DNA from: Anaerolineae bacterium | Lineage (GTDB): Bacteria > Chloroflexota > Anaerolineae > 4572-78 > NAK82 | Assembly (NCBI GenBank): GCA_049969215.1 | Contig: JBMFPH010000001.1 | Coordinates: forward strand, 1-54,991 | Direction: 5' to 3' | Length of the DNA stretch: 54,991 nucleotides | Shown: piece after piece, positions 14,192-33,158 of the stretch | Position numbering within the stretch: position 1 is the first letter of the stretch | Layout: each line of letters opens with the position of its first letter | Made by a program: the position numbers and the translations under genes | The notes under the pieces: generated by a model | The model's database searches: none | Told to the model about the DNA's origin: nothing | The model's input: the letters and a program-made list of their open reading frames with translations, nothing else

Positions 14192-15340
14192 TCATAACAA
14201 AGGCAGCGGAATCCAACGCCTTTCGCGCGAAGAACGATAGGCAGCTTCCATAATTTCTTGCACGCGTACACCGTCTTCAAAATCGGGCGGACCTGGCTGG
14301 CCCTTCACCAAGCTGGTGATAAAGTCGAACTGACTGGCAATATGGTAGCGCAACCAGCCGATCGCAAACTTGGGGCCAGGCAATACAGCTGGTGCCGGAT
14401 AGCGTTGCACACTTTCGATCGCCTTGAATCCACGATTGCCTCCCAGGGGTGCTTCCGGATCACGTGCGTCGAATACATATAGCCAGTTGGGATCCATTAG
14501 GTTGAAACGCAACGCCCCCAGCTGGCCATAAATCTCAACCTGCATCTCATCATTCGTGCCTGTTGCCAGCCGGCTGGCTTCGACTGTACCAATGGCGCCG
14601 TTCGCGGCACGCAACGTCAATACAGCCAAATCGTCCACCGTCACAGGGACGCGTCGATCAGGCTGTCCAGGGAGCGGACGCTCTTTAATAAATGTTTCCA
14701 TGGCGGCAAAAACTTCTACGAAATCGCCTAACAGAAAGCATAGTAAGTCAAGCACATGGGAACCCAGATCGACCAGCGCACCGCCGCCTGCCGCAGCGTC
14801 CAGGCGCCAAGACATCGGACGGTTGGGATCGACATATCCTGAGTGGCGATAGCACGCACGGAAGCCAAAAACCTGCCCCAGGAATCCATCTTCGACCAGC
14901 TGCTTGGCGCGCATCAGGGCAGGCACAAATCGCAGGTGAAAGGTCATACGGTGCTGCTTGCCAGAGCGCTGCGCTTCGGCCAACATTTCGCGTGCCTGGA
15001 TCAGGTTCGCCGCGAGCGGTTTATCGCAGTACACGTGCTTGCCCGCCCGCAGTGCTGTCATCACCACTTCATAATGCAGGTGATTGGGTACACAACAATC
15101 GATGACGTCAATATCCTCACGCGTGATCACCTCACGCCAGTCGGTGCTGCCAAACGCATACCCGGCCTGATCGATGGCCTTCTGCACCGACTCACGGCTG
15201 GCTGCGCTCACACCCACCAACCTGACCCGCGCCGGCATCGGGTCGTATATTAGCGGCAACGACTGATAGGCCAGTGTATGCACTTTGCCGATGAAACCAT
15301 ATCCGATCAGCCCAATTCGGATCTCCGGAAGCGCACCCAT
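14192..15340 (-). CDS. Gfo/Idh/MocA family oxidoreductase
   Basis: N-terminal Rossmann motif IGLIGYGFIGKVH, the EKP-like motif (CDKPLA), and an alpha/beta C-terminal domain typical of the family. Confidence 0.85.
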   Translation of the reverse strand: MGALPEIRIGLIGYGFIGKVHTLAYQSLPLIYDPMPARVRLVGVSAASRESVQKAIDQAGYAFGSTDWREVITREDIDVIDCCVPNHLHYEVVMTALRAGKHVYCDKPLAANLIQAREMLAEAQRSGKQHRMTFHLRFVPALMRAKQLVEDGFLGQVFGFRACYRHSGYVDPNRPMSWRLDAAAGGGALVDLGSHVLDLLCFLLGDFVEVFAAMETFIKERPLPGQPDRRVPVTVDDLAVLTLRAANGAIGTVEASRLATGTNDEMQVEIYGQLGALRFNLMDPNWLYVFDARDPEAPLGGNRGFKAIESVQRYPAPAVLPGPKFAIGWLRYHIASQFDFITSLVKGQPGPPDFEDGVRVQEIMEAAYRSSRERRWIPLPLL

Positions 15341-15406: not shown

Positions 15407-16876
15407 TTACAAAGTCTTCAAGAGACCCGTGCGTTCGTTGAACTGCTTGATCAGCTCGTCAATCTGTTCCACCTGATTTTGGATATCCGTCCAATAATTC
15501 GGGTCGTACCACTGCGCTTCGAGCTCCTCGGCGCTCTTGCCCTGCTGCTCCACCCATGTGTAATACTTCAGGTTGTGAATGCGTTTGCGGTCGTAGTAAC
15601 TCAATTCTTCCACATACTCGATCCCTTGACCCCGCAAATAGCGATGATACGCGATGATGGCACCCTCACGGGTGAATGCACCGCGCTCTGCAGTCAACTC
15701 GCGCAGCCGGCTGGCATACATCTCCATCGAGTCGGTCAACACCGTCAGCACGACATCGTGGTTGCCCAGCTCATAATAACGCGCAAACTTGATGGACGAC
15801 AACAGGTTGGCAACCCCAGAAATGCCCAGCAAGGGCAAGCTCGCGATCATCTGTTCCGGGACGCCCTGAGAAGCGAGATAAGCTTGCCCGGCCGGCTCGT
15901 TGAATAGGCGAATGAGTTGCATCGTGGCTTCGTCGTCGATTGCCATCACCATATCCGTATTCCTGATATTATGGATCCAAGGGACATGCTTATCACCGAT
16001 ACCCTCAATACGATGAGCGCCGAACCCGTTGTACATTAATGTGGGACACTGCAATGCCTCGCTGGCAGCGATTTTGCTGGTCGGGAAAACTTGCTTTAGG
16101 TAGTCGCCACACCCGATTGTGCCCGCTGAACCGGTGGTCAGAACCACGCCCCGGTAGGCGTCGCCGGGGCGCAGCGTTTGCTGCAACACTTCCTCCATTG
16201 CATGACCGGTGACGTAATAATGCCACAAGTAATTGCCCATTTCATCGAACTGGTTAAAGATCACAATATCCTCACCAGACCGGCGCAGCTCCCAACACTT
16301 GTCGAAAATCTCCTTGACGTTACTCTCTGTCCCTGGGGTCTTGATCACCTCTCCAGCTACAGAGGCGAGCCACGCGAAGCGCTCCTGACTCATCCCTTCC
16401 GGCAGGATGGCGATGGAATCGCAGCCCAGCAATGCGGAGTCGTATGCACCCCCTCGACAGTAATTCCCGGTTGATGGCCACGCAGCTTTTTGGGTGGTCG
16501 GATCAAATTGGCCGGTGACCAGACGCGGCACCAAACACCCAAAAGCTGCGCCTACCTTATGGGCACCCGTCGGGAACCATTTACCCACCAAGGCAATGAT
16601 GCGCGCCTCAACTCCGGTCAAAGAGGGGGGAAATTCGAGATAGTTTACACTACCAAATCCCCCTCCGCTGGCCACAGGTTCGTTCTTCCACGTAATACGG
16701 AATAGATTGAACGGGTTGATATCCCAGAGGCCGATGCTCGCGAGCCTGCGTTTGATCGCTTCAGGGACAGTTGTCGGATCGCGCTGTTGGGCAAACGTGG
16801 GAATAATAATGCCACGCTCCCGTGCGCGTTGCACCGCCCGAGCAAGGCGATCTTCGTGAATGCTCATATCAATCAT
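15407..16876 (-). CDS. fold-type II (Trp-synthase-beta superfamily) PLP-dependent enzyme with N- and C-terminal extensions, function unknown
   Basis: Candidate PLP-lysine context FPTGAHKVGAAFG and a glycine-rich phosphate loop TTGSAGTIG. At 489 aa it is longer than cysteine synthase-type enzymes. Confidence 0.65.
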   Translation of the reverse strand: MIDMSIHEDRLARAVQRARERGIIIPTFAQQRDPTTVPEAIKRRLASIGLWDINPFNLFRITWKNEPVASGGGFGSVNYLEFPPSLTGVEARIIALVGKWFPTGAHKVGAAFGCLVPRLVTGQFDPTTQKAAWPSTGNYCRGGAYDSALLGCDSIAILPEGMSQERFAWLASVAGEVIKTPGTESNVKEIFDKCWELRRSGEDIVIFNQFDEMGNYLWHYYVTGHAMEEVLQQTLRPGDAYRGVVLTTGSAGTIGCGDYLKQVFPTSKIAASEALQCPTLMYNGFGAHRIEGIGDKHVPWIHNIRNTDMVMAIDDEATMQLIRLFNEPAGQAYLASQGVPEQMIASLPLLGISGVANLLSSIKFARYYELGNHDVVLTVLTDSMEMYASRLRELTAERGAFTREGAIIAYHRYLRGQGIEYVEELSYYDRKRIHNLKYYTWVEQQGKSAEELEAQWYDPNYWTDIQNQVEQIDELIKQFNERTGLLKTL

Positions 16877-16907: not shown

Positions 16908-17891
16908 TTACTGAGATGTTTGTTTCGTTGATGATGTTAGTGTTCCATCAAAACCGATTGTCTCGCGCAATATATACAATGGGCGTCCTTTCACCTCGTC
17001 ATAGATGCGCCCCAAGTATTCTCCTATGATGCCCAATGTGATGAGCTGCACACCCCCGATAAATAACACGCACACAAGGGTGGTCGCTTGCCCATAGAAA
17101 GGGGCAGCTCCCATAAAGAGACGTGCGAAGATGACCAGCACGGCGGCGACCGCGCTCAGTCCCGCGATGATGAAGCCAAGATAAGTGGCCAGTTGCAGGG
17201 GGAGGTAACTGAATCCGGTAATAGCGTCCAAGGCGAACTTGAACATCTTGCGGAAAGGGTAATGTGTCTGTCCAGCGAAACGTTCCTCGCGCACGTAGTG
17301 GACACCAGTCTGGCGAAATCCCACCCAGCTGGTCATACCCCGGATGAAGCGATGGCGTTCGCGCATCTGCTTGAGAGCTTCCACCACTTTGCGATCCATC
17401 AGGCGGAAGTCACCCGTGTCCAGCGGGATCTTGACATCAGTGATGCGATAGATCAGGCGATAGAACAGAGACGCAGTGAACTTCTTGAACCAACTTTCTC
17501 CTTTGCGATGGATGCGCACGGCATAAACAACTTCGTAACCTTCTTTCCATTTCTGAACCATGTCCAGGATAACTTGTGGAGGATCTTGCAGGTCCGCATC
17601 GATGATCACCACAGCATCACCCCTGGCGAAGTCCAGGCCAGCCGTGACAGCGATTTGGTGGCCGAAGTTGCGTGCAAAGTCCACAATCTTGACCCGCGGA
17701 TCGCGTTGATGGAGCTCACGCATGATTTCAGGGGTACGGTCGTGGCTGCCGTCGTTTACCAGCACCAACTCCCAAGGTTCGCCAATACTGTCCATTACAG
17801 CGCTGATGCGCTTGTGCAGCTCATATAGTACCCCTTCCTCATTGTAGCACGGGGCGATAATCGAATAGCGCGGCCGTTCTGTCACAGGCAT
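16908..17891 (-). CDS. family 2 glycosyltransferase (polyprenyl-phosphate sugar transferase-like) with two C-terminal TM helices
   Basis: [11 protein letters not shown] start, DGSHDRT, and [10 protein letters not shown] (DxD region). Two hydrophobic helices lie near the C-terminus. The internal ATG 17891 follows GGAGAG and avoids overlap with the upstream gene. Confidence 0.85.
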
Positions 17892-17935
17892 CTCTCCTAA
17901 TAAAGCTTGCGATTTACGATTCGCACCCCATGGCC

Positions 17936-19243
17936 TCATCGCGCGAGGTAAGAAGATGCTCCCTCAAGGCTTTGTCGCACTGCCCTTCTAACGTCCTCGA
18001 ATGTCTTCTCGATTACGTGCGCATGTATGCCGACCTGTTCAACAGATTTCATGGCATTTTGCACATCCTTGAGCCCGTTTCCAGTAACCAACACAACAAT
18101 GCGTTCGTCAGCACGTACTTGTCCACTGTTCAACGCCTTCAGCAATCCGGCATAGGCAGCAGCACCCGCTGGCTCAGCAAAGACTCCGCTACCACGTGCC
18201 AAAGCCGGTATCGCTTCCAAGATTTCTTCGTCACTCACACGGATGAAAACGCCATTCGTGTCACACACCGCCGCCATAGCTTTCAGGCGGTCGCGTGGCA
18301 GACCGGCGCTGATACTATCGGCGACAGTATGCGCTTCAATGGGTGGTTTGGTCAGCACATTCTCACGGTTGACCCAGGCATCATAGAGGTAAGCAGAACC
18401 TGCAGCTTGCACGCCCATCAAGCGTGGTATATGCTCGATCCAACCCAAGGCGTACAAATCCCTCAAACCCTTGTGCAGCCCGCCAATGATACAGCCGTCA
18501 CCGACACTGACGAAGATAGCATCTGGCGGTTGCCACCCCATTTGCTCACATATTTCCAGGGCGACAGTTTTCTTGCCTTCGGTCATATGGGGATTATAGG
18601 CTGTATTGCGATTGTACCATCCGTACTCTTGTGCAGCAAGGAGACACAGCTCAAAAGCGTCGTCGTAATTGCCCCGCACTAACATAACCTGGGAGCCAAA
18701 TACAAGCAGCTGCGCGATTTTGGCTGGTGGAGCGCTCTGGGGTACGAAGATTACATTGCGCTGACGTACGCTGGCGCATAAGCCAGCAAGGGCAGCACCA
18801 GCATTACCCGTACTGGCCGTTGTTATCACCTCTGATCCTTTCTCTCGAGCTTTCACAATTGCGATAGCACTGGCACGATCCTTGAGCGAACCGGTAGGCT
18901 GTCGGCCATCATCCTTGATCCACAAATGTTTGAGCCCCAGCTCAGCCGCGAGACGATTGGCGCGCATCAATGGTGTCCACCCTACAATCAAAGGCGGTAC
19001 CAGCGCATCGGCGCGAACTGGCAGCAACGGCTTATAACGCCACATAGAATAATCCGTGTTATGAAGCAGATCTCCTTGGCTGAGTCGGCGGGCGATCAAC
19101 TCATAGTCGTATTGGATATCTAAAATGCCTTCATTCCCATGGTATGGACAGACATACTCCACTTCGCCGGGTTGGTACTCTTTTCCGCAAATGAGACATC
19201 TCAAATTCGTAATGTGCTCAATGCCCGAGTTTTGTGACGGCAT
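17936..19243 (-). CDS. thrC: threonine synthase-like PLP enzyme with N-terminal zinc ribbon
   Basis: CLICGKEY...CPYHG zinc ribbon, [13 protein letters not shown]-lysine motif, and [10 protein letters not shown]. The length and architecture resemble archaeal-type ThrC. Confidence 0.75.
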
Positions 19244-19320: not shown

Positions 19321-20052
19321 TTAGGCAGAAGCGTCTGCTGTTGACTGACACTGCTTATGATACTCCTCAATCATAGCGCGCAACTGGGCGATGTGCTCAC
19401 GTTCATGTTCCAGCATACGCCGGATCACCTTGCGCATTGTCCACTCCTCGCCCTGATGATGAACGACTCTTCCCCGCTCCGTTTCCGGCACAGCGCGCAA
19501 TCGTTCTAACGCGATCCCGCGTGTCGCTGCCAAACGATGCAGTGGTGCCTCTGGCCACTGCTTCAGGCGATCGGTATACCATAAATCAGATTCGGCCAGG
19601 TGACAAACAATCTGAGCGACCGACCAGGCGTCCTCAGACGGTCGCCAATCCCACATTTCCTGAGGCATGCAACGCAACAGATCCATTAGCTCCTGACGTG
19701 AGATTGCCATCCAACGGAAAAGTGTCTCCAATTCATTGGGCTGCATTGGATCGTAGTCGGTCACGAAAGTAGTGTCTTCGGTTTCTTGGAAATCTAATAG
19801 GATCGGTTCATCGGCCTTAGGAACGGGCTCTCCGACATCGCGCAACAGAGAGAGGTACTGCTGAACTGCAACACGGATGTTCTCTTTGGCTTCCTCAACA
19901 GTCTTGCCACGCGCAGAGGCACCGGGCAGGGCCGGCACATGCGCCGCTGGACCTTTCACCGTGACCGGGTCGCCACGTGTTTCGATATACACCAGATACC
20001 TGGCCATGTGCTCCTCCAAATCATCGAAGAAGATTTCGTGGAGTGTGCCCAT
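19321..20052 (-). CDS. HicB-like (UPF0150) N-terminal domain fused to a DinB_2-type four-helix-bundle domain
   Basis: The N-terminal ...YLVYIE...VPALPGASARGKTVEEAKENIRVAVQQYL resembles the HicB antitoxin fold. The C-terminal WSVAQIVCHLAESDLWY ... EHEREHIAQL gives a DinB-type His triad context. The internal ATG 20052 avoids overlap with arcC. Confidence 0.65.
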   Translation of the reverse strand: MGTLHEIFFDDLEEHMARYLVYIETRGDPVTVKGPAAHVPALPGASARGKTVEEAKENIRVAVQQYLSLLRDVGEPVPKADEPILLDFQETEDTTFVTDYDPMQPNELETLFRWMAISRQELMDLLRCMPQEMWDWRPSEDAWSVAQIVCHLAESDLWYTDRLKQWPEAPLHRLAATRGIALERLRAVPETERGRVVHHQGEEWTMRKVIRRMLEHEREHIAQLRAMIEEYHKQCQSTADASA

Positions 20053-20089
20053 CGTTGTCTCGAGGCGGATCGATGTAGGGAAGACAAAG

Positions 20090-21049
20090 CTAATCTGGCG
20101 TGATATGCGTGCCGGTCTCACCATTCAGGGCACGTTCGATGTTCTCCGGGTTGGTGATGATGGCGTACCGGCCGCCTCGCTCCAGGTAGTCGATGATCGC
20201 CTCTATTTTGGGCGCCATGCTTCCCTTCTTGAAGTGAACACCCTCGGCGAGATATCGCTTTGCCTCGCTCAGGGTCATGTGATTCAGCCAGTGTTGTTGC
20301 GGTGTGCCAAAGTGGAGAGCCACTTTTTCAACCGCGGTGCTGATAAGCAACAAATCGGCATTGAGCGACGAGGCGAGCAATCCGGAGGCGTAATCTTTAT
20401 CGATGACGGCTGCCACTCCCTTGAGATGGCCATGTTCGTCTGCCACCACGGGAATGCCACCACCTCCCACGGTGATGACCACTGCCCCGGCGTCCAGTAA
20501 CAGCTTGACCGCGTCCAGCTCCACTACACGTTTGGGCAAGGGGGAAGCGACAACACGTCGCCAGCCACGGCCAGCGTCTTCAATCACATTCCAGCCATCC
20601 TTCTCTTGACGTTCTCTCGCCAGTTCTTCGCTCATAAATGAGCCGATGGGTTTAGAGGGATTCTGCCAAGCCGGATCGTCACGATCCACCTCTACCTGAG
20701 TCACCACCGTCACCACCGGCTTAGCGATGCGCATATCCAGGAGGTGATTGCGTAGAGTCTGCTGGAGTGCATATCCAATGGCACCTTGCGTGTCAGCGCC
20801 ACATACATCGAGGGGAACTTCGTGCAATTCGTGACGTGCCAGTTCGGAACGTCGTAGAATGAAGCCTACTTGGGGACCATTTCCGTGGGTAAGCGCAATA
20901 TCCCACCCCATTCTGATCATCTGTGCAATATGGTAGGTGGTTTCATTAGCGGCTGCATATTGGTCTTCCACCGTCTGATGTGCCGAATCCTTGATGAGCG
21001 AATTGCCGCCAATCGCTACAACCGCAACTCTGCGCCTTGCGCTGTTCAT
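20090..21049 (-). CDS. arcC: carbamate kinase
   Basis: RVAVVAIGGNSL N-terminus, THGNGPQVG, and VITVGGGGIPV motifs. ATG 21049 follows GGAGAG. Confidence 0.92.
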   Translation of the reverse strand: MNSARRRVAVVAIGGNSLIKDSAHQTVEDQYAAANETTYHIAQMIRMGWDIALTHGNGPQVGFILRRSELARHELHEVPLDVCGADTQGAIGYALQQTLRNHLLDMRIAKPVVTVVTQVEVDRDDPAWQNPSKPIGSFMSEELARERQEKDGWNVIEDAGRGWRRVVASPLPKRVVELDAVKLLLDAGAVVITVGGGGIPVVADEHGHLKGVAAVIDKDYASGLLASSLNADLLLISTAVEKVALHFGTPQQHWLNHMTLSEAKRYLAEGVHFKKGSMAPKIEAIIDYLERGGRYAIITNPENIERALNGETGTHITPD

Positions 21050-21139
21050 AGTTTTTCTCTCCTGCACGCTATGAGCGTGCGCCTGGCCGGCGTCTCACAT
21101 CGCCCAGGCACCTCTTTCCAGGAATATTCTCCGAACGGA

Positions 21140-22177
21140 TCACAGGTTGCCCATTGTCAAAGCCATCACCGCTTTTTGGACGTGCAGGCGATTCTCAGCC
21201 ACTATGTAAATCACAGAGTTGGGACCACTCGCTACCTCGTCGGTCACCTCGTTACCTCGGTCCACCGGCATAGGATGCGTGAAAATGGCATTGTCGGTAC
21301 GTGCCATCTTCGCGGCGTCTAAAGTCCATCCCTGGTGGGAGAGTGCCTTGGCAATCTCTTCTTGCTTTTTGAATTGGCCATCCTGGTACGCGTTGGGGCT
21401 CATCCAGTTGCGCGCGTAGACAATATGCGCGCCGTCCATGCAACGTACCGGGTCGTTTGTGATCTCAAGCGAGGTGCCCCATTCTTGGCAATTTTGTCTA
21501 GTCCAGCTGATCACTTCAGGGTCGAGGTCATAACCCTCCGGACGCGCGATGGTGACATGCATCCCAAAGCGGCTGGCAATCAGAATCGCTTCCTGGACGC
21601 TGCACCAGCTGCGCGCAAGAGCACCTTGTGCCCAAGTGAGCACAAATTTCTTGCCTTGCAGACGACCATAATCTGGTCGCCCCGGTCCTCCGCCGAACCA
21701 TTCTGCCCATCCCATGACATCCGCCAAGCCTTGGAAGGGATGAAAGCGGTCATCGGCCATATTGACGACAGGCACATCTGCCCAATGGGCATACTCCCGC
21801 AGCAGCGCGGTGCCGGCACCGTAATAGGGTACCTTGTCCTCCAGAATGCGAATGCCGATACCACAGGCATAGCGCGACATCACCTTGGCAGCGTCTTCAA
21901 CTGTCTCACCAGCCGTAGTGGCCGTCTTGAGCCGCATGCTCTCCGGCACCAAGAATTGGGCATGACCACCCAGCTCGGTAGCAGCACACTCGAACGATTG
22001 TCGTGTACGTACGGAAGGGTTGTAGAAAAACATGAAAAATGTCTTATGCGCCAGAACCTTTGTCCAGCGCTCAGAGAAACGATCCCGCTTCATACGAGCG
22101 GCCAGTTCGAGTACCTCGTCGAGTTCCTGCTTGCTCCACTCCTGGGTTGTGATGAGATCGCGTCCGTAGAGGTCCAT
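21140..22177 (-). CDS. OTCase-superfamily carbamoyltransferase, divergent paralog (AOTCase/YgeW-like branch)
   Basis: SVRTRQSFE (STRTR-type carbamoyl-phosphate motif), HPFQGLAD, and C-terminal AENRLHVQKAVMALTMG. The usual HCLP motif reads THPMPVDRG. Confidence 0.8.
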   Translation of the reverse strand: MDLYGRDLITTQEWSKQELDEVLELAARMKRDRFSERWTKVLAHKTFFMFFYNPSVRTRQSFECAATELGGHAQFLVPESMRLKTATTAGETVEDAAKVMSRYACGIGIRILEDKVPYYGAGTALLREYAHWADVPVVNMADDRFHPFQGLADVMGWAEWFGGGPGRPDYGRLQGKKFVLTWAQGALARSWCSVQEAILIASRFGMHVTIARPEGYDLDPEVISWTRQNCQEWGTSLEITNDPVRCMDGAHIVYARNWMSPNAYQDGQFKKQEEIAKALSHQGWTLDAAKMARTDNAIFTHPMPVDRGNEVTDEVASGPNSVIYIVAENRLHVQKAVMALTMGNL

Positions 22178-22180
22178 AGA

Positions 22181-23254
22181 TCAGAGTCGCCCTCCCATTG
22201 TCAAGGTCATCACCGCCTTTTGCACGTGTAGGCGATTTTCAGCCTCCTCATACACGGCGGAACGCCACCCCCGTTGTACATCGGTGTTGTCGATCACGTC
22301 ATTGTCGACTTCCCAACCGCGGTCGGCCGGCAGACAATGGAGATAAATCGCCTCATGATCGGCGGTTTCCATCAGACGGCGTGTCATCTTCCAGGTCTTA
22401 TAGCTTTCGTTGATCGCTTTAGCTTTCTGCTCGTCTCCCTCGCCCACTGGGGGTTTGAAGAAACACTTCGGTGCCCATGCCTTTGGATACACTACGTGGG
22501 CATCCTTGAAGGCGCTTTCAAAATCATGTGTGATTGTGAAGGAGGCATTGTTCATCTTAGCATTGGCCTGGCATGCCGCGATCACCTCAGGGTCGAGCTC
22601 GAACTCGGGCGGATGGCACAGCACCGTGTCACAACCCATCATCGAAGCGGCAATGATAGCGCTTTGTGGCACGGCGCGAGGCTTATGAATGCTGGGCGAG
22701 TAAGCCCAACTCATCACAAATTTGATACCCTTGAAGGTGCCAAAACGCTCCCAGGTGGTCAGAATATCGGCCAATGCTTGGAAGGGGTGATACTTATCAT
22801 CTTCCATGTTTAATACCGGGATATCGGCCCAGCGGGCGAACTCACGGATCAGCATATTTGCACCGCCATAAACCCAGTCCACGGGGTCCCCATAACAGCG
22901 AATGGCGATGCCATCGCCCATACGACTCAGCACACGCGCGACATCGGAGACACGTTCGGTAGAGTAAGCCACCTCCTTACCCTCCAACGCTGGTGTGTAA
23001 ATCTTCTCTGGGTCGAGATAGTGTGCGTGACCGCCCAGCTGGGTCATACCAGCCTCGAAGCTGTTGCGTGTCCGCAAGCTTTGGTTATAGAAAATCATGA
23101 ACAGGGTTTTGGCACGCAGCAGGTGATCATGCAGCTCCCCCATAGCATAGCGTCTCTTGAGATCGCGCGCGCAATCGAGAATTGTTTCGATTTCTTCCTT
23201 GCTCCATTCGAGCAGTGTGATGAAATCTTTGCCTTTGAAGCTATCAGTCCTCAT
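22181..23254 (-). CDS. OTCase-superfamily carbamoyltransferase, YgeW/AOTCase-like (knotted type)
   Basis: SLRTRNSFE, HPFQALAD, SWAYSPSIHKP..., HCLPADRG, and C-terminal AENRLHVQKAVMTLTMG. The RBS is AAAGGAGAA. Confidence 0.82.
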   Translation of the reverse strand: MRTDSFKGKDFITLLEWSKEEIETILDCARDLKRRYAMGELHDHLLRAKTLFMIFYNQSLRTRNSFEAGMTQLGGHAHYLDPEKIYTPALEGKEVAYSTERVSDVARVLSRMGDGIAIRCYGDPVDWVYGGANMLIREFARWADIPVLNMEDDKYHPFQALADILTTWERFGTFKGIKFVMSWAYSPSIHKPRAVPQSAIIAASMMGCDTVLCHPPEFELDPEVIAACQANAKMNNASFTITHDFESAFKDAHVVYPKAWAPKCFFKPPVGEGDEQKAKAINESYKTWKMTRRLMETADHEAIYLHCLPADRGWEVDNDVIDNTDVQRGWRSAVYEEAENRLHVQKAVMTLTMGGRL

Positions 23255-23280: not shown

Positions 23281-23307
23281 GAAAAAGCTACGCTTCAGGC
23301 GTAGCTT
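23281..23307 (-). terminator. intrinsic terminator downstream of tRNA-Leu, immediately upstream of the carbamoyltransferase RBS
   Basis: On the minus strand: AAGCTACGC, loop CTGAA, GCGTAGCTT, then TTTCTCT (stem 23285-23307). Confidence 0.7.
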
Positions 23308-23327
23308 GGCGCTTTGAGGAAGGATTA

Positions 23328-23410
23328 TGCCCCGGAGTGGACTCGAACCACCACGCCCGTTCGGGCACAGGCCCTCAACCTGCCGCGTATGCCAATTCCG
23401 CCACCGGGGC
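23328..23410 (-). tRNA. tRNA-Leu, anticodon GAG, type II (long variable arm), CCA not encoded
   Basis: Hand-folded 83-nt cloverleaf. Acceptor stem GCCCCGG/CCGGGGC with discriminator A and a 3-bp D stem. Anticodon stem GCAGG/CCTGT with loop TTGAGGG. A 14-nt variable arm. T arm GGTGG-TTCGAGT-CCACT. Confidence 0.93.
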
Positions 23411-23425
23411 ATCCTCTCACTTTAA

Positions 23426-23455
23426 ATTATAGCGCCAAATGCTCCTGCTTGTCAA
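23426..23455 (-). promoter_or_regulatory. consensus promoter for tRNA-Leu
   Basis: On the minus strand: TTGACA (complement of 23450-23455), an 18-nt spacer, then TATAAT (complement of 23426-23431). The predicted start is ~9 nt before the mature tRNA 5' end. Confidence 0.65.
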
Positions 23456-23895: not shown

Positions 23896-24909
23896 ATGAA
23901 GGCGTTAGTACTAAAGGCATACAACTGTCTGGAATATGGAGAAGTTCCAGATCCGCAAGTTGCGCCAGATGAAGTCCTATTGCGCGTCAAAGCATGCGGT
24001 ATCTGTGGGAGTGATGTACATGGAATCGACGGAAGCACAGGTCGCCGCGTCCCCCCAATTATTATGGGCCACGAGGCAGCCGGCATTATTGCTCAAGTCG
24101 GAGCCGCAGTACCCGAATGGAAGGTTGGTGACCGGGTCACCTTCGATATAACCCTCCACTGTGGGACATGCTACTTCTGTCGGCGCGGTATGTTCAATTT
24201 GTGTAAACAGAGGCGCATTGTAGGGGTGTCCACACCGGGGTTCCGTGTGCATGTTCCCCATCGTGTGTTGTATCGGTTGCCAGATAATCTTTCCTTTGAG
24301 CACGCTGCCATGATGGAGCCCCTCTCCGTGGCAGCGCACGCCATTCAGCTCACCTCGATTACGCTGTACGACACAGCTGTCGTTATCGGCACAGGTGTGA
24401 TTGGTTTGCTGCTTGTGCAGCTGCTGCGGCTGGCAGGATGTGGACAGATTGTCGCTGTGGATGTTGAGCGCGACCGATTGCAACGCGCTCTGGCATTAGG
24501 AGCGGACGTGGCCCTGTTGTCTGACCCGGACAATCTACCAGCTGAGGTGCGTCAGCGTACCGAGGGACGTGGTGCTGATGTTGTTTTTGAGGTGGTAGGT
24601 CTTACGCAAACCGTTCAGATGGCAGTCGAAAGCGTGCGTGAGGGGGGTACGGTAACGTTGATTGGCAACTTGTCACCGGCGGTAGAGCTGCCATTGCAGA
24701 AGGTGGTGACTCGTCAGCTGAAGCTGATTGGCAGCACTAATGCTGCCGGCGAGTCCGAAGCTTGCCTGAGAATGCTGGCCTCCAAAGCAGTGCAGGTAGA
24801 CCCGCTTATCAGCGCTATAGCTCCCCTCTCGGAAGGAGTAGCTTGGTTCCGGCGACTGTATGCACGTGAACTTGGCTTGATAAAGGTTATTCTGGTGCCG
24901 GAGGATTGA
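23896..24909 (+). CDS. zinc-dependent medium-chain alcohol/polyol dehydrogenase
   Basis: CGICGSDVH, GHEAAG, structural-zinc loop CGTCYFCRRGMFNLC, and GTGVIG Rossmann motif. Confidence 0.85.
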   Translation: MKALVLKAYNCLEYGEVPDPQVAPDEVLLRVKACGICGSDVHGIDGSTGRRVPPIIMGHEAAGIIAQVGAAVPEWKVGDRVTFDITLHCGTCYFCRRGMFNLCKQRRIVGVSTPGFRVHVPHRVLYRLPDNLSFEHAAMMEPLSVAAHAIQLTSITLYDTAVVIGTGVIGLLLVQLLRLAGCGQIVAVDVERDRLQRALALGADVALLSDPDNLPAEVRQRTEGRGADVVFEVVGLTQTVQMAVESVREGGTVTLIGNLSPAVELPLQKVVTRQLKLIGSTNAAGESEACLRMLASKAVQVDPLISAIAPLSEGVAWFRRLYARELGLIKVILVPED

Positions 24910-25012
24910 GACATTGGGATCAAGGTGCCTCACCCTTGTTTTCGAGGACACGACTCAAAGCCTGCCCTTCTTAAAGCGGGAAGAATAAACCTGGAGTGGG
25001 AGGAATGCACTG

Positions 25013-25972
25013 ATGGAGATAAGCAGGGAAACGATGTTGGAGATGTATCGCCGTATGGTGCGCATTCGGGAGTTCGAGCTCGCGGCGATTGACCTGTTTA
25101 AGCGCGGTATGGTGAAAGGTGCCATCCACGCCTATATAGGACAGGAGGCATCAGCAGTGGGTGTGTGCATGGCATTGCGCAAGGACGACCTGATTGCCGG
25201 TACACACCGTAGCCATGGTCATAACATTGCTAAGGGCGCTGACACCAAGAAAATGATGGCCGAAATCTTGGGCAAGGAGACCGGCTACTGCAAAGGGCGT
25301 GGTGGTTCGATGCATATTGCTGCTTTTGAGACAGGGAGCTTGGGAGCACTGGCAGTAGTGGGTGCCGGAATCCCCATTGCGGTAGGAGCTGCACTGGCAT
25401 TTAAGCTGCGTGGTGAGGATCGTGTTGCAGTGCCATTTACTGGCGATGCAGGATGCAACACAGGCAATTGGCATGAAGGGTTAAACATGGCCTCGATCTG
25501 GGATCTGCCGGTGGTCTTCGTTCTCGAAAACAATCAGTATGGCGTGTCCACCAGAATCTCCTACAGCTGCAAGATCTCAGATCTTTCCTTGCGTGCCCAG
25601 TCGTATGGCATACCCGGTGTGCGCGTTGACGGCTTCGACGTACTCGCCGTGTATCAAGCTGCTAAGGAGGCGGTGGAGCGCGCGCGCCGTGGTGAAGGGC
25701 CTACTTTGCTGGTGACCGAGTCATATCGCTTCGAGGGACACTACGCCGGCGAGCCAGAGGTCTATCGTGACCGGGCAGAGGTACAGGAGTGGCGCAAGAA
25801 AGATCCCATCCCGCGTTTCCGCAATTACCTGCTTGAGCAAGGAATGGCGAGTGACGGTGAGCTGGCCGCGATCGAGGCCGAGGTGAAACAAGAGATCGCT
25901 GATGCGGTGAGGTTCGCTCAAGAGAGCCCACAACCCGATCCGGCTACGGCGATGGACTATATTTACGCTTGA
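25013..25972 (+). CDS. TPP-dependent 2-oxoacid/acetoin dehydrogenase E1 alpha subunit (copy 1)
   Basis: ...HAYIGQEA..., GGSMH, and the TPP motif reading GDAGCNTG...ENNQY. It is collinear with AcoA/PdhA-type proteins. Confidence 0.88.
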   Translation: MEISRETMLEMYRRMVRIREFELAAIDLFKRGMVKGAIHAYIGQEASAVGVCMALRKDDLIAGTHRSHGHNIAKGADTKKMMAEILGKETGYCKGRGGSMHIAAFETGSLGALAVVGAGIPIAVGAALAFKLRGEDRVAVPFTGDAGCNTGNWHEGLNMASIWDLPVVFVLENNQYGVSTRISYSCKISDLSLRAQSYGIPGVRVDGFDVLAVYQAAKEAVERARRGEGPTLLVTESYRFEGHYAGEPEVYRDRAEVQEWRKKDPIPRFRNYLLEQGMASDGELAAIEAEVKQEIADAVRFAQESPQPDPATAMDYIYA

Positions 25973-25991
25973 TGGAGCAGGAGACGAACCA

Positions 25992-27068
25992 ATGGCCACA
26001 GTCGAAAAGGACGCTGTATCATTGGGTGTGACCAAGCCCACCATGTCCCCCGATCTCATTGTACAGGTTCCACCGGGTGTGCCTGCCAAGGAGATGTCCT
26101 ATCAGGAAGCAATCCGCGAGGCGTTGCGTGAGGAGATGATGCGCGATCCCAGCGTTTTCTTGCTGGGTGAGGATATAGGCAAGCATGGAGGCGCCTTTGG
26201 GGTGACGCGCACGTTGTATGACCAGTTCGGCCCAGAGCGCGTGCGCAACACCCCTATTTCGGAAAACACTATCGCTGGTGCCGCCATCGGTGCCGCATTG
26301 GTGGGCATGCGGCCTGTGGCGGAGATCATGTTCGTCGATTTCTCCGGACTGGCAATTGACCAAATCGCGAATCAAGCGGCCAAGCTACGTTTTATGACAG
26401 GTGGGCAGTGCAAGGTGCCTATGGTGGTGCGCATGCCCCAAGGCGGCGGCGCCGGCAAGAGCACAGCCGCACAACACTCTCAGAGCTTGGAGGTATGGTA
26501 TGCTCACATCCCTGGCTTAAAGGTGGTTTTTCCCTCCACACCCTATGACGCCAAGGGGCTGCTCAAAGCAGCGATTCGGGATGACAACCCTGTCGTTTTC
26601 TTGGAACAAAAGTTCCTCTACTCATTTCGCGGTCTGGTGCCCGAAGAGGACTATGTACTTCCTCTGGGTAAGTGCGATGTCAAACGCCAGGGTTCCGATG
26701 TCACCGTGGTTGCTTCCGGCTACATGGTGTGGCACGCCATGGCCGCTGCAAAGCAGCTGGAACAAGAAGGTATCAGCGTCGAGGTGGTGGATGTATGCAC
26801 CATCAGCCCGTTGGACGAAGAGACAATCGGGCGCTCTGCCCGGAAGACGGGGCGGGCAGTGGTGGTAGCGGAAGCGGTGCGTTCTTACGGGCCGGCCAGT
26901 GAATGGGCTATGGTGATCATCGAGCAAGCATTCGACTACCTCAAAGCTCCCATCGTGCGTCTGACAGGGCGTTTCTCCCCTGTGCCCTTTGCCGATAGCA
27001 TTGAAAAGGGCTTCTGGCCAGATACTGAAGACGTGATGCAGGCAATTCGTAAGGTGATGAGCTACTGA
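25992..27068 (+). CDS. E1 beta subunit (copy 1)
   Basis: GEDIGKHGGAFGVTRTLYDQFG, NTPISEN, and a C-terminal transketolase-C-like domain. It has a ~34-aa N-terminal extension relative to copy 2. ATG 25992 has a well-spaced GGAGCAGGAG. Confidence 0.88.
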   Translation: MATVEKDAVSLGVTKPTMSPDLIVQVPPGVPAKEMSYQEAIREALREEMMRDPSVFLLGEDIGKHGGAFGVTRTLYDQFGPERVRNTPISENTIAGAAIGAALVGMRPVAEIMFVDFSGLAIDQIANQAAKLRFMTGGQCKVPMVVRMPQGGGAGKSTAAQHSQSLEVWYAHIPGLKVVFPSTPYDAKGLLKAAIRDDNPVVFLEQKFLYSFRGLVPEEDYVLPLGKCDVKRQGSDVTVVASGYMVWHAMAAAKQLEQEGISVEVVDVCTISPLDEETIGRSARKTGRAVVVAEAVRSYGPASEWAMVIIEQAFDYLKAPIVRLTGRFSPVPFADSIEKGFWPDTEDVMQAIRKVMSY

Positions 27069-27076
27069 TCTCACTT

Positions 27077-27943
27077 TTGGGCAGGGTGAGGGAGCAATTG
27101 ATCAAGATCGCTGCCACGATCGGCACACCCGATTTGCGCATGGAAACCCTGGCACTCTACAGCGGAGATGTTGCCACAGCGCTGCGCAAGGTGGCCGCGC
27201 TTGGGTACGATGGTGTTGAGTTCATGATGCGCGATCCCACCCAGCTGGATGGCACTAAGCTACGCCATTGGCTGGATGAATACAACTTGGAGCTGGCAGC
27301 CATCTGTACCGGCCATGTGTATGGCGAAGACGGCCTGGGTCTGGTGAATCCTGATGTGCAGGCGTGTCGACAGGCGATGCAGCGCATGAAGTCCATTGTC
27401 GACTTCGCAGCAACCCACTTTGAAAGAGGGACGATTGTCACGATTGGCCGCTCGCGAGGCCCTGGGTATGCAGACGATCCAGAGAGATCGTTAGCAGAGA
27501 TGGAAGCTGCCTTTGGTGAGTTGGCTGATTACGCTGCACCACGGGGGGTTCGGTTGGTGCTCGAGCCGATCAATGTGCACCAAGCACGCTATATTCACAC
27601 CACTCAAGAAGGCATCGCGATGGTGAAACGGGTCAATCGCCCTAATTTTGGCCTGATGCTGGATGTTTATCATATGAACATCGAGGACGTGAACATCTAC
27701 GACAGCTTTCGTGAGGCAGACGGCCTGTGCTGGTTCGTGCACTTTGCCGATAACAATCGTCGTTGGCCGGGCAGTGCCCATCTCAACTTCGAGGAGATCG
27801 TGCGTGTTCTCAACGAAATAAGGTACTCAGGTTATGTATCGACGGAGATTCTGCCGTGGCCCGATCCCGATACAGCAGCACGTGCCACGATTGAGTCGCT
27901 ACGACGCTACATCCCCAGTAGAACCAGGCAAAATGGGCAATGA
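27077..27943 (+). CDS. xylose-isomerase-like TIM-barrel sugar (phosphate) isomerase/epimerase (paralog of 40567-41382)
   Basis: ...LMLDVYHMNIED... and HFADNNRRWPGSAHLNF motifs are shared with the paralog. The exact start is uncertain (TTG 27077, GTG 27086 or TTG 27098). Confidence 0.8.
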   Translation: MGRVREQLIKIAATIGTPDLRMETLALYSGDVATALRKVAALGYDGVEFMMRDPTQLDGTKLRHWLDEYNLELAAICTGHVYGEDGLGLVNPDVQACRQAMQRMKSIVDFAATHFERGTIVTIGRSRGPGYADDPERSLAEMEAAFGELADYAAPRGVRLVLEPINVHQARYIHTTQEGIAMVKRVNRPNFGLMLDVYHMNIEDVNIYDSFREADGLCWFVHFADNNRRWPGSAHLNFEEIVRVLNEIRYSGYVSTEILPWPDPDTAARATIESLRRYIPSRTRQNGQ

Positions 27944-27954
27944 GGTAAACGCCT

Positions 27955-29109: not shown

Positions 29110-29205
29110 GCATGAGGGGTGCGTTCGCGTCAAAGAGTTATAGAACAAAGACTTGAGGTCGTCAGTGTGTTCTTCTATGATACTTCATCTTGAACGGAGG
29201 AGGGG

Positions 29206-30588: not shown

Positions 30589-30604
30589 GATTGGGGGAGA
30601 TCCA

Positions 30605-31357
30605 ATGCGCCTCAAGGACAAAGTCGCGATTATCACTGGCGGTGGTTCGGGTATTGGACGCGCCAGCGCCGAGCTGTTCGCACTGGAGGGTGCCAAAGTC
30701 GTGGTGGCTGACTTCAATGAGAAAGCGGGTCAGGAAACGGCTGCAGCCATTCGGCAGTCAGGAGGTGAGGCCATCTTCGTGCAGGTGGACGTTTCGGACT
30801 CGGCGCAAGTGCAACGCCTGGTGGACATCACTCTCCAAACCTACAGCGGGGTTGACATTCTGGTCAACAACGCCGGTATTCTTCTCTTCGGGACAGCTCT
30901 CGACACCAGTGAGCAGGATTGGGAACGAGTGATTGCCATTAACCTGACAGGCACCTTCTTGGTCAGCAAAGCGGTGCTCCCCCATATGATCGCGCGCGGG
31001 GGCGGTTCCATCGTCAATTTGACCTCCTCCACCGGGGCACACGATGCAGCAGCTAACACGGTGGCCTATGTCGCTTCCAAGGGGGGAGTGGCACTGTTGA
31101 CCAGAGCCATGGCGATTGACCACGCAAAGCATAATGTGCGGGTCAATGCTGTCGCACCAGGCCCTACAGATACCCCAATGCTCCGAGATGCTATGTCGCC
31201 TGAACAACTGTCAGCCTTTGCCGCCACTTTCCCGATGGGACGTTTGGGTCGTCCGGAGGAGCTGGCACGTGCAATACTGTTTCTAGCATCGGACGAGGCT
31301 TCGTTCGTTACGGGAGCTATCCTAGCCGTGGATGGAGGGCAGACAGCTCAAGTGTAA
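30605..31357 (+). CDS. short-chain dehydrogenase/reductase (SDR)
   Basis: TGGGSGIG cofactor motif, NNAG, and the YVASKGG catalytic YxxxK. Confidence 0.9.
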   Translation: MRLKDKVAIITGGGSGIGRASAELFALEGAKVVVADFNEKAGQETAAAIRQSGGEAIFVQVDVSDSAQVQRLVDITLQTYSGVDILVNNAGILLFGTALDTSEQDWERVIAINLTGTFLVSKAVLPHMIARGGGSIVNLTSSTGAHDAAANTVAYVASKGGVALLTRAMAIDHAKHNVRVNAVAPGPTDTPMLRDAMSPEQLSAFAATFPMGRLGRPEELARAILFLASDEASFVTGAILAVDGGQTAQV

Positions 31358-31404
31358 GCACGGTCAGGGGCGAGTCAGGGGATTGAGAAGGCTATATCAG
31401 GGTT

Positions 31405-32157: not shown

Positions 32158-32164
32158 GAACAGA

Positions 32165-33157: not shown

Positions 33158-33158
33158 G

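What the first reader, a model, noticed from the sequence alone, without database searches (positions are those of the whole stretch)
20090..23254. Two tandem knotted-type carbamoyltransferase paralogs translationally coupled and followed by carbamate kinase
Seen: two OTCase-superfamily genes (22181-23254 and 21140-22177) are separated by only 3 nt and are followed 90 nt later by carbamate kinase. Both end in AENRLHVQKAVM.LTMG and carry the SxRTR and HPFQ motifs. The upstream one has HCLPADRG and a SWAYSPS..KP stretch that I recall from E. coli YgeW. The downstream one reads THPMPVDRG at that position. No arginine deiminase, agmatine deiminase, ornithine/putrescine antiporter or arg biosynthesis genes are nearby.

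Established: a catabolic transcarbamylase plus carbamate kinase yields ATP from carbamoyl compounds in the arginine, agmatine and oxalurate routes. E. coli YgeW is a transcarbamylase-like protein whose substrate had not been established to my knowledge, and it is encoded near a carbamate-kinase-like gene.

Inference: this may be a hetero-oligomeric or two-substrate carbamoyl-transfer module for an unidentified ureido compound. Alternatively it could be an anabolic carbamate-kinase-driven carbamoyl-phosphate supply.
Basis: partly seen in the sequence, partly recalled or inferred. Interest (0 to 1): 0.65.

Follow-up and report, generated by a model that had tools for sequence, protein, structure and literature searches.

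The report
Two carbamoyltransferases for purine breakdown ATP
Two old, distinct carbamoyltransferase genes sit next to a carbamate kinase gene, and in related bacteria the same trio lies inside gene clusters for anaerobic uric-acid breakdown, so it most likely makes ATP from the ureido groups left over from purines rather than making arginine as databases say.

Summary
Two intact OTCase-superfamily genes (TC-A 22181-23254, TC-B 21140-22177, minus strand) are 3 nt apart. A bona fide carbamate kinase follows 72-90 nt later. All quoted motifs are present.

They are not OTCase, AOTCase, SOTCase, PTCase or YgeW. Every curated model scores below its cutoff, and the residues that define each family's specificity are missing. 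TC-A and TC-B are old paralogs (41% identical) and form two separate, uncharacterised clades among the knotted transcarbamylases.

The TC-A/TC-B/CK trio recurs in about 110 loci of Chloroflexota and Acidobacteriota. It usually comes with a GntR/UTRA regulator and two PLP enzymes. In roughly a quarter of the genome-survey loci it lies beside genes of the recently solved 2,8-dioxopurine (reductive uric-acid) pathway: YgfK, XdhD-like dehydrogenase, SsnA, HyuA-like hydantoinase, adenine deaminase and PnrA-type transporters. There it occupies the place that YgeW-YqeA holds in E. coli.

Best reading: a catabolic module that phosphorolyses the ureido groups of 2,3-diureidopropanoate and turns the carbamoyl phosphate into ATP. 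One enzyme may serve each ureido group. The window itself holds no upstream purine genes, and substrates are inferred, not shown. I rate it a new variant of a known kind.

The parts
22181..23254 (-). TC-A: carbamoyltransferase, 357 aa, with YgeW-like loops (MSWAYSPSIHKPRAVPQ, VYPKAW, HCLPADRG). It belongs to a monophyletic, uncharacterised clade.
21140..22177 (-). TC-B: carbamoyltransferase, 345 aa, with its own signature (GALARSWCSVQ, YARNW, THPMPVDRG). It belongs to a second monophyletic, uncharacterised clade. Its start lies 3 nt after the TC-A stop.
20090..21067 (-). Carbamate kinase. The likely start is the ATG at 21049, giving 319 aa. It is 51% identical to E. coli YqeA.
19321..20124 (-). 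DinB_2/HicB-like protein of unknown role. It follows CK in the window's lineage. Relatives are about 225 aa, so the true start is probably downstream of the first ATG.
17936..19243 (-). Threonine-synthase-like PLP enzyme with an N-terminal zinc ribbon. It is co-conserved with the trio and is a candidate replacement for YgeX (26% identical).
16908..17939 (-). Family-2 glycosyltransferase. It is conserved in this position only in the window's near relatives and is probably not part of the module.
15407..16876 (-). PALP489: an unnamed fold-type II PLP enzyme of 489 aa with a PTGAHK lysine motif. It is co-conserved with the trio and directly precedes TC-A in the purine-cluster loci.
14192..15340 (-). 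Gfo/Idh/MocA oxidoreductase, the last gene of the same-strand run. Its link to the module is uncertain.
23327..23411 (-). tRNA-Leu(GAG) immediately upstream of TC-A. Its own consensus promoter is at 23455-23426 and a terminator-like hairpin at 23307-23285.

Best explanation
The three genes form the ATP-yielding end of a purine-degradation route.

TC-A and TC-B are two separate carbamoyltransferases that run in the catabolic direction. Each uses phosphate to remove a carbamoyl group from a ureido compound, giving carbamoyl phosphate. The carbamate kinase then converts that to ATP, ammonia and CO2.

The most likely substrates are the two ureido groups of 2,3-diureidopropanoate (DUPA), the ring-opened product of the 2,8-dioxopurine (reductive uric-acid) pathway. 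On this reading:
- TC-A, which shares YgeW's substrate-loop motifs, takes the step that YgeW performs in E. coli.
- TC-B takes the remaining mono-ureido intermediate, the step that the hydrolase YgeY performs in E. coli. Both carbamoyl groups are then conserved, giving up to 2 ATP per purine instead of 1.
- The resulting 2,3-diaminopropanoate would be deaminated to pyruvate by one of the two co-conserved PLP enzymes.

Shown: gene identities, the conserved trio, and its position inside purine clusters in relatives.

Inferred: the direction of catalysis, the substrates, and the division of labour between TC-A and TC-B.

My probabilities: catabolic ureido phosphorolysis coupled to CK about 0.8; link to purine/DUPA catabolism about 0.6; one enzyme per ureido group about 0.35.
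For: 1. Both proteins keep every carbamoyl-phosphate-binding motif (SxRTR, the R of the 100s, HPxQ, HxxP, ENRxH). These positions are invariant across 121 aligned family members. Neither is a pseudo-enzyme.

2. CK passes the arcC equivalog cutoff. It is 51% identical to YqeA. YqeA makes ATP together with YgeW (bioRxiv 10.1101/2025.04.24.650524, read).

3. Context in relatives:
- L001-L004/L065: xanthine permease, XDH subunits, GntR, PALP, TC-A, TC-B, CK, YgfK. That YgfK scores 991 against the 835 equivalog cutoff.
- L034, L104 and L131 show the same layout, with XDH and YgfK directly after CK.
- L028 has YgfK, a fused XdhD-like gene and an SsnA-like gene (37% identical to E. coli SsnA) after CK.
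- Acidobacterial L052/L055/L056 read HyuA-like, SsnA-like, fused GltD/PreA-like reductase, PALP489, YgeY, TC-A, TC-B, CK, ThrC-like. L027's SsnA (499 vs 444) and L055's YgeY (439 vs 321) pass their equivalog cutoffs.
- L048/L101 carry adenine deaminase and a hydantoinase beside the trio.
- PnrA-like nucleoside ABC transporters recur.

4. Counts: 19 of 78 genome loci hold a purine-catabolic gene within 10 kb, and 13 of the 36 loci of at least 15 kb do.

5. No YgeY-type hydrolase lies within 10 kb in any Chloroflexota locus with purine genes, so the second ureido group has no other obvious enzyme there.

6. TC-A shares YgeW's proline-rich loop, 240s-loop start and HCLPAD. TC-B differs at all three.

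7. A HutC/PhnF-type GntR regulator precedes the trio in about 67 loci, which is typical of catabolic operons.
Against: - The 55-kb window itself has no XDH, YgfK, SsnA or HyuA gene, so the link is by orthology at about 75% identity only.
- Most surveyed loci show no purine gene within 10 kb, although many contigs are short.
- Acidobacterial loci carry YgeY as well as both TCs, so TC-B is not a simple substitute for YgeY.
- Two PLP enzymes are co-conserved where the known pathway needs one. The chemistry may therefore differ from E. coli's.
- TC-B plus CK occurs alone among housekeeping genes (L081/L084/L086). That hints at a more general substrate for TC-B.
- No substrate-bound model or assay supports the assignment of either enzyme.
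- The two published studies disagree on which ureido group YgeW cleaves.
Confidence: 0.55

Rival explanations
1. The two proteins assemble into one hetero-trimeric carbamoyltransferase. This single enzyme is the equivalent of YgeW, with active sites shared between unlike subunits.
For: - The gap is 3 nt, with a ribosome-binding run inside the 3' end of TC-A.
- The pair co-occurs in 80-89% of determinable loci.
- Transcarbamylase active sites lie at subunit interfaces (PMC4581275).
- Acidobacterial clusters keep YgeY as well as the pair, which fits one TC activity plus one hydrolase.
Against: - Each paralog occurs without the other in 8 of 71 and 12 of 60 determinable loci. Some of these lie in purine clusters, such as L154, L159, L102 and L107.
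- IVP or NYN genes are inserted between the two in more than 20 loci, and intergenic distances range up to several kb. Only 15 of 103 gaps are 0-10 nt.
- The two clades are old and independently monophyletic, each with 100% bootstrap support.
Confidence: 0.15
2. They are arginine-biosynthetic ornithine or N-acetylornithine carbamoyltransferases, as public annotation says. The kinase supplies carbamoyl phosphate.
For: - Source annotations call both 'ornithine' or 'N-acetylornithine carbamoyltransferase'.
- The best NCBIfam model for both is AOTCase.
- The best fold match for both is Xanthomonas AOTCase.
- TC-B is highly conserved (70-96%) and sometimes sits among housekeeping genes.
Against: - Scores fall below the AOTCase cutoff (266 and 243 against 288) and below all OTCase cutoffs.
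- There is no DxxxSMG motif.
- The AOTCase specificity residues E92/N185/K302 are V/K/E in TC-A and A/R/E in TC-B, and the SOTCase-defining proline is absent (criteria from PMC4581275).
- No arg genes appear among recurrent neighbours in about 158 loci.
- The recurrent neighbours are catabolic.
Confidence: 0.07
3. The module serves a different ureido substrate. One candidate is the N-carbamoyl-beta-amino acids of reductive pyrimidine breakdown, with one enzyme for the uracil-derived product and one for the thymine-derived product. Another is imported ureido amino acids. The purine genes would then be neighbours only because nucleobase genes cluster together.
For: - Some loci pair TC-A with a DHO_dh/PreA-like reductase and a dihydropyrimidinase-type amidohydrolase (L102, L107, L048).
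- PnrA-type transporters import nucleosides in general.
- A catabolic beta-alanine transcarbamylase has been proposed but never found (PMC4581275).
- The window has no upstream purine genes.
Against: - YgfK, SsnA and YgeY score as equivalogs and are specific to the urate route.
- XDH, adenine deaminase and xanthine permease are purine genes.
- DHO_dh-type reductases and hydantoinases also serve the urate route (UacX, HyuA; PMC12507026).
- The PLP enzymes have no role in beta-alanine formation.
Confidence: 0.18

Closest known systems
E. coli YgeW-YqeA (carbamoyltransferase plus carbamate kinase of the 2,8-dioxopurine / reductive uric-acid pathway)
   Same: - A carbamoyltransferase is directly followed by a carbamate kinase (51% identical to YqeA).
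- In relatives it is embedded with YgfK, XdhD-like, SsnA and HyuA-like genes.
- TC-A shares YgeW's WAYSPSxxKPxxVPQ loop, VYPKxWAP and HCLPAD.
- In a rough NJ tree both paralogs group loosely with YgeW (72% bootstrap).
   Different: - Neither protein is a YgeW family member: NCBIfam scores are 161 and 116 against a cutoff of 453.
- They are 32% and 31% identical to YgeW.
- Both lack YgeW's N- and C-terminal helices and its 120s and 240s insertions.
- Two enzymes stand where E. coli has one.
- YgeY and YgeX orthologs are mostly absent, and two other PLP enzymes are present instead.
Xanthomonas campestris N-acetylornithine transcarbamylase (AOTCase, PDB 3KZC/3KZK)
   Same: - It is the best sequence-model hit and the best fold match for both (TM 0.85-0.86, rmsd 2.0-2.9 A).
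- Both share its extended 120s loop.
- Lengths are similar, and the loop equivalent to the proline-rich loop has the same length.
   Different: - Both score below the equivalog cutoff.
- The specificity residues E92, N185 and K302 are all replaced.
- The 80s loop is shorter and lacks the substrate-binding Trp.
- The context is catabolic, with CK, rather than an arg cluster.
Arginine deiminase and agmatine deiminase pathways (catabolic OTCase or PTCase plus carbamate kinase)
   Same: The logic is the same: phosphorolysis of a ureido compound, followed by substrate-level ATP synthesis by carbamate kinase.
   Different: - There is no deiminase and no antiporter.
- The proteins lack the DxxxSMG motif of OTCase and the loop motif and C-terminal helix of PTCase.
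- Scores are far below cutoffs.
Rubrobacter xylanophilus ureidoglycine carbamoyltransferase (UGTCase) with carbamate kinase
   Same: It is a transcarbamylase next to a carbamate kinase inside a purine-degradation cluster, and it harvests a ureido group as carbamoyl phosphate (PMC4016543).
   Different: - UGTCase belongs to the unknotted ATCase branch.
- It acts on allantoate of the oxidative pathway.
- It is a single enzyme.
2,3-diaminopropionate transcarbamylase of viomycin/capreomycin biosynthesis (DPTCase)
   Same: It interconverts 2,3-diaminopropionate and beta-ureidoalanine (albizziin). That is the reverse of one reaction proposed here.
   Different: - It lies on the unknotted OTCase branch, with a (T/S)RWQTTG loop and HDLP (PMC4581275).
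- It is anabolic and sits in an antibiotic cluster.

Membership tests
Transcarbamylase superfamily (OTCace_N + OTCace) | Both Pfam domains above the gathering score, plus the carbamoyl-phosphate motifs SxRT, HPxQ and HxLP | tested here: met
   132/114 bits for TC-A and 126/114 bits for TC-B, against cutoffs of about 30. Motifs are SLRTR/HPFQ/HCLP in TC-A and SVRTR/HPFQ/HPMP in TC-B. The key positions are invariant in 121 sequences.
Knotted transcarbamylases (AOTCase/SOTCase/YgeW group) | Extended 120s loop | tested here: met
   both carry the roughly 10-residue insertion relative to Pyrococcus and E. coli OTCase (GDPVDWVYGGANML in TC-A, EDKVPYYGAGTALL in TC-B).
Knotted transcarbamylases (AOTCase/SOTCase/YgeW group) | Proline-rich loop through which the C-terminal part threads | tested here: inconclusive
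   TC-A has SPSIHKPRAVP, with 4 prolines. TC-B has a loop of the same length but no proline (QGALARSWCSV). For both, the best fold match is knotted AOTCase.
N-acetylornithine carbamoyltransferase (NF003384) | Score at or above the curated equivalog cutoff of 288 bits | tested here: not met
   TC-A scores 266.4 and TC-B 243.3.
N-acetylornithine / N-succinylornithine carbamoyltransferase | Specificity residues. AOTCase has E92, N185 and K302. SOTCase has A/S/P/V/Q, P and V/I/E at the same positions (PMC4581275). | tested here: not met
   alignment: TC-A has V, K, E and TC-B has A, R, E. The middle position fits neither family.
Ornithine carbamoyltransferase | DxxxSMG loop, and a score above the TIGR00658 or NF001986 cutoff | tested here: not met
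   The equivalent stretches read YPKAWAP in TC-A and YARNWMS in TC-B. Scores are 237 and 199 against the TIGR00658 cutoff of 281, and 237.5 and 219.3 against the NF001986 cutoff of 306.
YgeW family (NF005538 / TIGR03316) | [quoted passage not shown] | tested here: not met
   NF005538 scores are 160.7 and 115.8; the YgeW insertions are absent, and lengths are 357 and 345 aa against 396 aa.
YgeW family | Substrate-loop motifs WAYSPSxxKPxSVPQ, VYPKSWAP and HCLPAD | tested here: inconclusive
   TC-A matches all three. TC-B matches none.
Carbamate kinase (TIGR00746 arcC) | Score above the equivalog cutoff of 358.25 | tested here: met
   366.2 on TIGR00746, and 403.5 on subfamily model NF009007 (cutoff 266).
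2,8-dioxopurine (reductive uric-acid) pathway gene cluster | Co-location with XdhD/XdhAC, YgfK or UacX, SsnA and HyuA | tested here: inconclusive
   Not met in the window itself. Met in orthologous loci: L001, L028, L034, L104, L131, L027/29/52/55/56, L048/L101, L154 and L159.
2,8-dioxopurine pathway | Phosphorolysis of 2,3-diureidopropanoate coupled to ATP formation | not testable with these tools
   This needs enzyme assays.

The most novel reading that the evidence does not exclude
Chloroflexota and Acidobacteriota run a fully phosphorolytic lower branch of the reductive uric-acid pathway. Two regiospecific knotted carbamoyltransferases of previously unrecognised subfamilies remove the 2-ureido and the 3-ureido group of 2,3-diureidopropanoate in turn. 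Carbamate kinase then recovers two ATP per purine ring instead of one. New PLP enzymes replace YgeX. TC-B would be the first transcarbamylase shown to act catabolically on a mono-ureido diaminopropanoate.
Probability: 0.33. Interest if true: 0.72.

Novelty: new variant of a known kind. Interest (0 to 1): 0.6.

Why it matters
The anaerobic uric-acid pathway was solved only in 2025. Its commentary names the order and regiochemistry of ureido cleavage as an open question (PMC12990295).

A natural system with two dedicated carbamoyltransferases could settle which ureido group each enzyme type attacks. It would also show that both carbamoyl groups can be conserved as ATP, which matters for energy-limited anaerobes.

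The result adds two substrate classes to a family in which the 2015 family review (PMC4581275) lists about nine activities. It also corrects the annotations met here: where a source names these clusters at all, it calls them ornithine or N-acetylornithine carbamoyltransferase.

Finally, it extends the pathway from gut bacteria to widespread environmental phyla.

Tried and rejected
- Looked in the whole 55-kb window for purine, arginine, agmatine or allantoin genes. None were found.
- An exact-sequence look-up of the window's TC-B found nothing on record.
- Tested for a riboswitch or leader upstream of TC-A. Rfam found only a tRNA, and ARAGORN calls it tRNA-Leu.
- Tried to resolve whether YgeW is sister to TC-A or to TC-B. 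NJ bootstraps are indecisive: 25% against 55%. Deep nodes in the 54-taxon tree are weak. These are distance trees on identity, not likelihood trees.
- Tried to find complementarity between YgeY and the second TC. It holds in Chloroflexota loci but fails in three acidobacterial loci.
- Compared the PLP enzymes with YgeX. ThrC-like is only 26% identical over about 200 residues, and PALP489 is barely detectable, so neither can be called the lyase.
- The knot could not be verified, because predicted coordinates are not exposed.
- A literature search found no description of the tandem pair.
- Rejected the pseudo-enzyme idea, because all catalytic motifs are invariant.


Full report
**1. What is in the sequence**

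On the minus strand lie three genes in a row:
- TC-A, 22181-23254, 357 aa.
- TC-B, 21140-22177, 345 aa.
- A carbamate kinase, 20090-21067.

The TC-A stop codon (TGA) is followed by TCT and then the ATG of TC-B. A GGGAGGG run sits inside the last codons of TC-A. The kinase starts 72 nt downstream at a GTG or 90 nt downstream at an ATG. The ATG gives the 319-aa length seen in relatives.

Both transcarbamylases carry both Pfam domains. The kinase passes the arcC equivalog cutoff.

Downstream on the same strand, with gaps of 30-80 nt and no convincing terminator, follow:
- a DinB-like gene;
- a threonine-synthase-like PLP enzyme;
- a family-2 glycosyltransferase;
- a 489-aa PLP enzyme (PALP489);
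- a Gfo/Idh/MocA oxidoreductase.

Upstream there is no regulator. Instead there is a tRNA-Leu(GAG) gene with a perfect sigma-70 promoter and a terminator-like hairpin that ends about 30 nt before the TC-A ribosome-binding site.

The rest of the 55-kb window encodes glycolytic, 2-oxoacid dehydrogenase, transketolase-like and sugar-transport genes. It holds nothing for arginine, agmatine, allantoin or purine metabolism.

**2. What the two proteins are not**

The best NCBIfam model for both is N-acetylornithine carbamoyltransferase, but both score below its cutoff (266 and 243 against 288). OTCase, PTCase, YgeW and ATCase models fall further below theirs.

In the alignment with solved or well-known members:
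- Both lack the DxxxSMG loop of OTCase.
- The three residues that define AOTCase (E92, N185, K302) are V/K/E in TC-A and A/R/E in TC-B. The proline that defines SOTCase is missing. These criteria come from PMC4581275.
- Both lack the N- and C-terminal helices and the insertions of YgeW.

Public records nevertheless name them ornithine or N-acetylornithine carbamoyltransferase.

**3. What they are**

TC-A and TC-B are 41% identical to each other. Over gap-trimmed alignment columns they are about 39% identical to Xanthomonas AOTCase, 37-42% to Pyrococcus OTCase and 33% to YgeW.

Across about 250 orthologs from fetched loci, each forms its own clade with 100% bootstrap support. The two are almost never sisters (4%). 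Together with YgeW they form a weakly supported group (72%), which joins AOTCase.

A search of 1.8 billion cluster representatives shows a broad radiation of unnamed relatives. In a 54-taxon tree, TC-B groups with a few HPMP or HCMP proteins (91%). TC-A stands alone. AOTCase-type HCLPxRR proteins form another group. Deep nodes are weak.

All carbamoyl-phosphate-binding residues are invariant in both clades, so neither is a dead enzyme.

The two differ in the loops that bind the second substrate:
- TC-A reads MSWAYSPSxxKPxAVPQ, VYPKxW and HCLPxDR, close to YgeW's TWAYSPSYGKPLSVPQ, VYPKSW and HCLPAD.
- TC-B has an invariant GALARSWCSVQ, YxRNW and THPMPxDR.

AlphaFold models are confident (pLDDT 94.4 and 93.6). 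Both superpose best on knotted AOTCase (TM 0.85-0.86), ahead of Pyrococcus OTCase.

By the published sequence signatures:
- Both have the extended 120s loop.
- Only TC-A has a proline-rich loop.

The knot itself could not be computed.

**4. Comparative context**

A scan of one genome per species with TC-B returned 80 loci. They come from Chloroflexota (Anaerolineae, Ardenticatenia, Thermoflexia, Caldilineae, Chloroflexia) and from Acidobacteriota. A metagenome scan with TC-A returned 80 more.

I mapped a panel of reference proteins onto them, with these results:

| Anchor | Partner | Present | Other |
|---|---|---|---|
| TC-B | TC-A upstream | 63 of 71 determinable loci (50 directly adjacent) | absent in 8 |
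| TC-B | CK downstream | 68 of 75 | |
| TC-A | TC-B downstream | 48 of 60 | absent in 12 |

Recurrent partners are a HutC/PhnF-type GntR regulator, the ThrC-like enzyme and PALP489.

The decisive neighbours are purine genes:
- **L001-L004/L065:** xanthine permease, three XDH subunits, GntR, PALP489, TC-A, TC-B, CK, and then a protein that passes the YgfK equivalog cutoff (991 against 835).
- **L034, L104, L131:** the same layout, with XDH and YgfK after CK.
- **L028:** YgfK, a fused XdhD-like gene and an SsnA-like gene, 37% identical to E. coli SsnA.
- **Acidobacterial loci:** a HyuA-like hydantoinase, SsnA, a fused GltD/PreA-like reductase, PALP489, YgeY, TC-A, TC-B, CK and ThrC-like. The SsnA equivalog score (499 against 444) was measured on L027, and the YgeY score (439 against 321) on L055.
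- **L048/L101:** adenine deaminase and a D-hydantoinase.
- **PnrA-type nucleoside ABC transporters** occur in 19 of 78 genome loci.

A purine-catabolic gene lies within 10 kb in 19 of 78 genome loci, and in 13 of the 36 loci that are at least 15 kb long.

**5. Link to known biochemistry**

Two 2025 studies showed the following route.
- Uric acid is reduced to 2,8-dioxopurine (XdhD/XdhAC).
- The ring is dearomatised (YgfK or UacX).
- It is opened by SsnA and HyuA to give 2,3-diureidopropanoate.
- YgeW removes one ureido group by phosphorolysis.
- YqeA makes ATP from the carbamoyl phosphate.
- YgeY hydrolyses the other ureido group.
- YgeX deaminates diaminopropanoate to pyruvate.

The two studies disagree on which ureido group YgeW attacks, and a commentary lists this as open. 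One of the studies noted SsnA clusters in Chloroflexota and counted any PF00185 protein as YgeW. Neither describes a pair of non-YgeW transcarbamylases.

In the loci described above, TC-A/TC-B/CK occupy the position of YgeW/YqeA. The kinase is 51% identical to YqeA.

**6. Most likely mechanism**

The module is catabolic. Each transcarbamylase phosphorolyses a ureido group, and the kinase converts the carbamoyl phosphate to ATP.

The substrate has two ureido groups. No YgeY-type hydrolase is seen near the Chloroflexota clusters. The two enzymes have different substrate loops. The simplest model is therefore one enzyme per ureido group. TC-A would be the YgeW-like first step, and TC-B would act on the mono-ureido product. 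One of the PLP enzymes would be the lyase. That doubles the ATP yield.

I hold these points with decreasing confidence:
- Catabolic coupling to CK: about 0.8.
- Purine/DUPA link: about 0.6.
- One enzyme per ureido group: about 0.35.

**7. What does not fit**

- The window has none of the upstream pathway genes. The module may be fed from elsewhere in the genome or from imported intermediates.
- Acidobacterial clusters keep YgeY alongside both enzymes.
- Two PLP enzymes are conserved where one would do.
- TC-B with CK alone occurs next to thrS among housekeeping genes. The window's cluster also lies next to thrS.

**8. Rivals**

- **An obligate hetero-trimer** is weakened by three observations. 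Each paralog occurs independently. Genes are inserted between them (23S-rRNA-IVP and NYN proteins). Tight spacing is rare, with only 15 of 103 gaps at 0-10 nt.
- **Arginine biosynthesis** is contradicted by scores, specificity residues and context.
- **A pyrimidine-derived or other ureido substrate** remains possible, especially for loci with PreA-like reductase and dihydropyrimidinase genes. However, YgfK, SsnA and YgeY equivalogs, XDH and adenine deaminase point to purines.

**9. Verdict**

The interpretation as a catabolic ureido module is right in outline, and it can now be tied to the reductive uric-acid pathway. The hetero-oligomer and anabolic readings are unlikely.

I rate it a new variant of a known kind. 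Two unrecognised transcarbamylase subfamilies replace YgeW, and there is a testable prediction of full phosphorolytic harvesting of both carbamoyl groups.

Noticed in passing
window 23285-23455 (-): A tRNA-Leu(GAG) gene (23327-23411) has a 12/12 consensus promoter (23455-23426). A hairpin plus T-run (23307-23285) ends about 30 nt before the TC-A ribosome-binding site. The same tRNA lies about 80 nt upstream of TC-A in L005, L009, L011, L091 and L097. The operon may be transcribed by read-through of the tRNA terminator, whereas other lineages have a GntR regulator at that spot.
   Followed up: partly
L018, L041, L046, L069, L074, L076, L111, L132, L142, L149, L150 (about 0.6-kb gaps); L038, L045, L062, L063, L066, L128, L134-L136, L141 (about 1.2-kb gaps): Small genes are inserted between TC-A and TC-B. 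Representative inserts are a 23S-rRNA-intervening-sequence-type four-helix protein (PF05635; about 0.6-kb gaps) and a NYN-domain protein (PF01936; about 1.2-kb gaps). I annotated only some of the listed loci individually. The recurrence at the same junction looks like repeated insertion of small selfish or accessory genes.
   Followed up: partly
window 15407-16876 (-): PALP489 is a 489-aa fold-type II PLP enzyme with a tryptophan-synthase-beta-like PTGAHK lysine motif and long N- and C-terminal extensions. It matches no curated family above cutoff and is only distantly like cysteine synthases. It is co-conserved with the transcarbamylase pair in 47 of 158 loci. It appears to be an unnamed enzyme family.
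   Followed up: partly
window 17936-19243 (-): The ThrC-like protein scores exactly at the NCBIfam threonine synthase PRK08197 cutoff (303.2 against 303), so pipelines will name it threonine synthase. Yet it travels with the catabolic cluster in 51 of 158 loci. This is a probable misannotation.
   Followed up: partly
L008 6614-6709: A tRNA-Sec gene lies about 1.2 kb upstream of the GntR/TC-A/TC-B/CK cluster. The E. coli counterpart cluster is known as selenium-linked. This may be coincidence.
   Followed up: no
L028 11078-17806: In this long-read MAG, the carbamate kinase, YgfK and the fused XdhD-like gene are each split into two or three ORFs. This is either sequencing frameshifts or a decaying pathway.
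   Followed up: no
window 23896-40444 (+): There is a large divergent catabolic island. It holds two sets of 2-oxoacid dehydrogenase E1 alpha/beta genes plus an E2, split transketolase genes, an 802-aa transketolase-like protein, xylose-isomerase-like TIM barrels, a URO-D-like protein, zinc alcohol dehydrogenases and a FadR-type GntR regulator. The substrate is unknown, and the island appears unrelated to the finding.
   Followed up: no
L081, L084, L086 and window 12356-14158: The minimal TC-B plus CK pairs in L081, L084 and L086 share a conserved, unnamed membrane-protein gene upstream. In L086, the one locus I annotated, the pair lies next to thrS, as the window's larger cluster does. This suggests a conserved chromosomal site where TC-A and the PLP genes were gained or lost.
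   Followed up: partly
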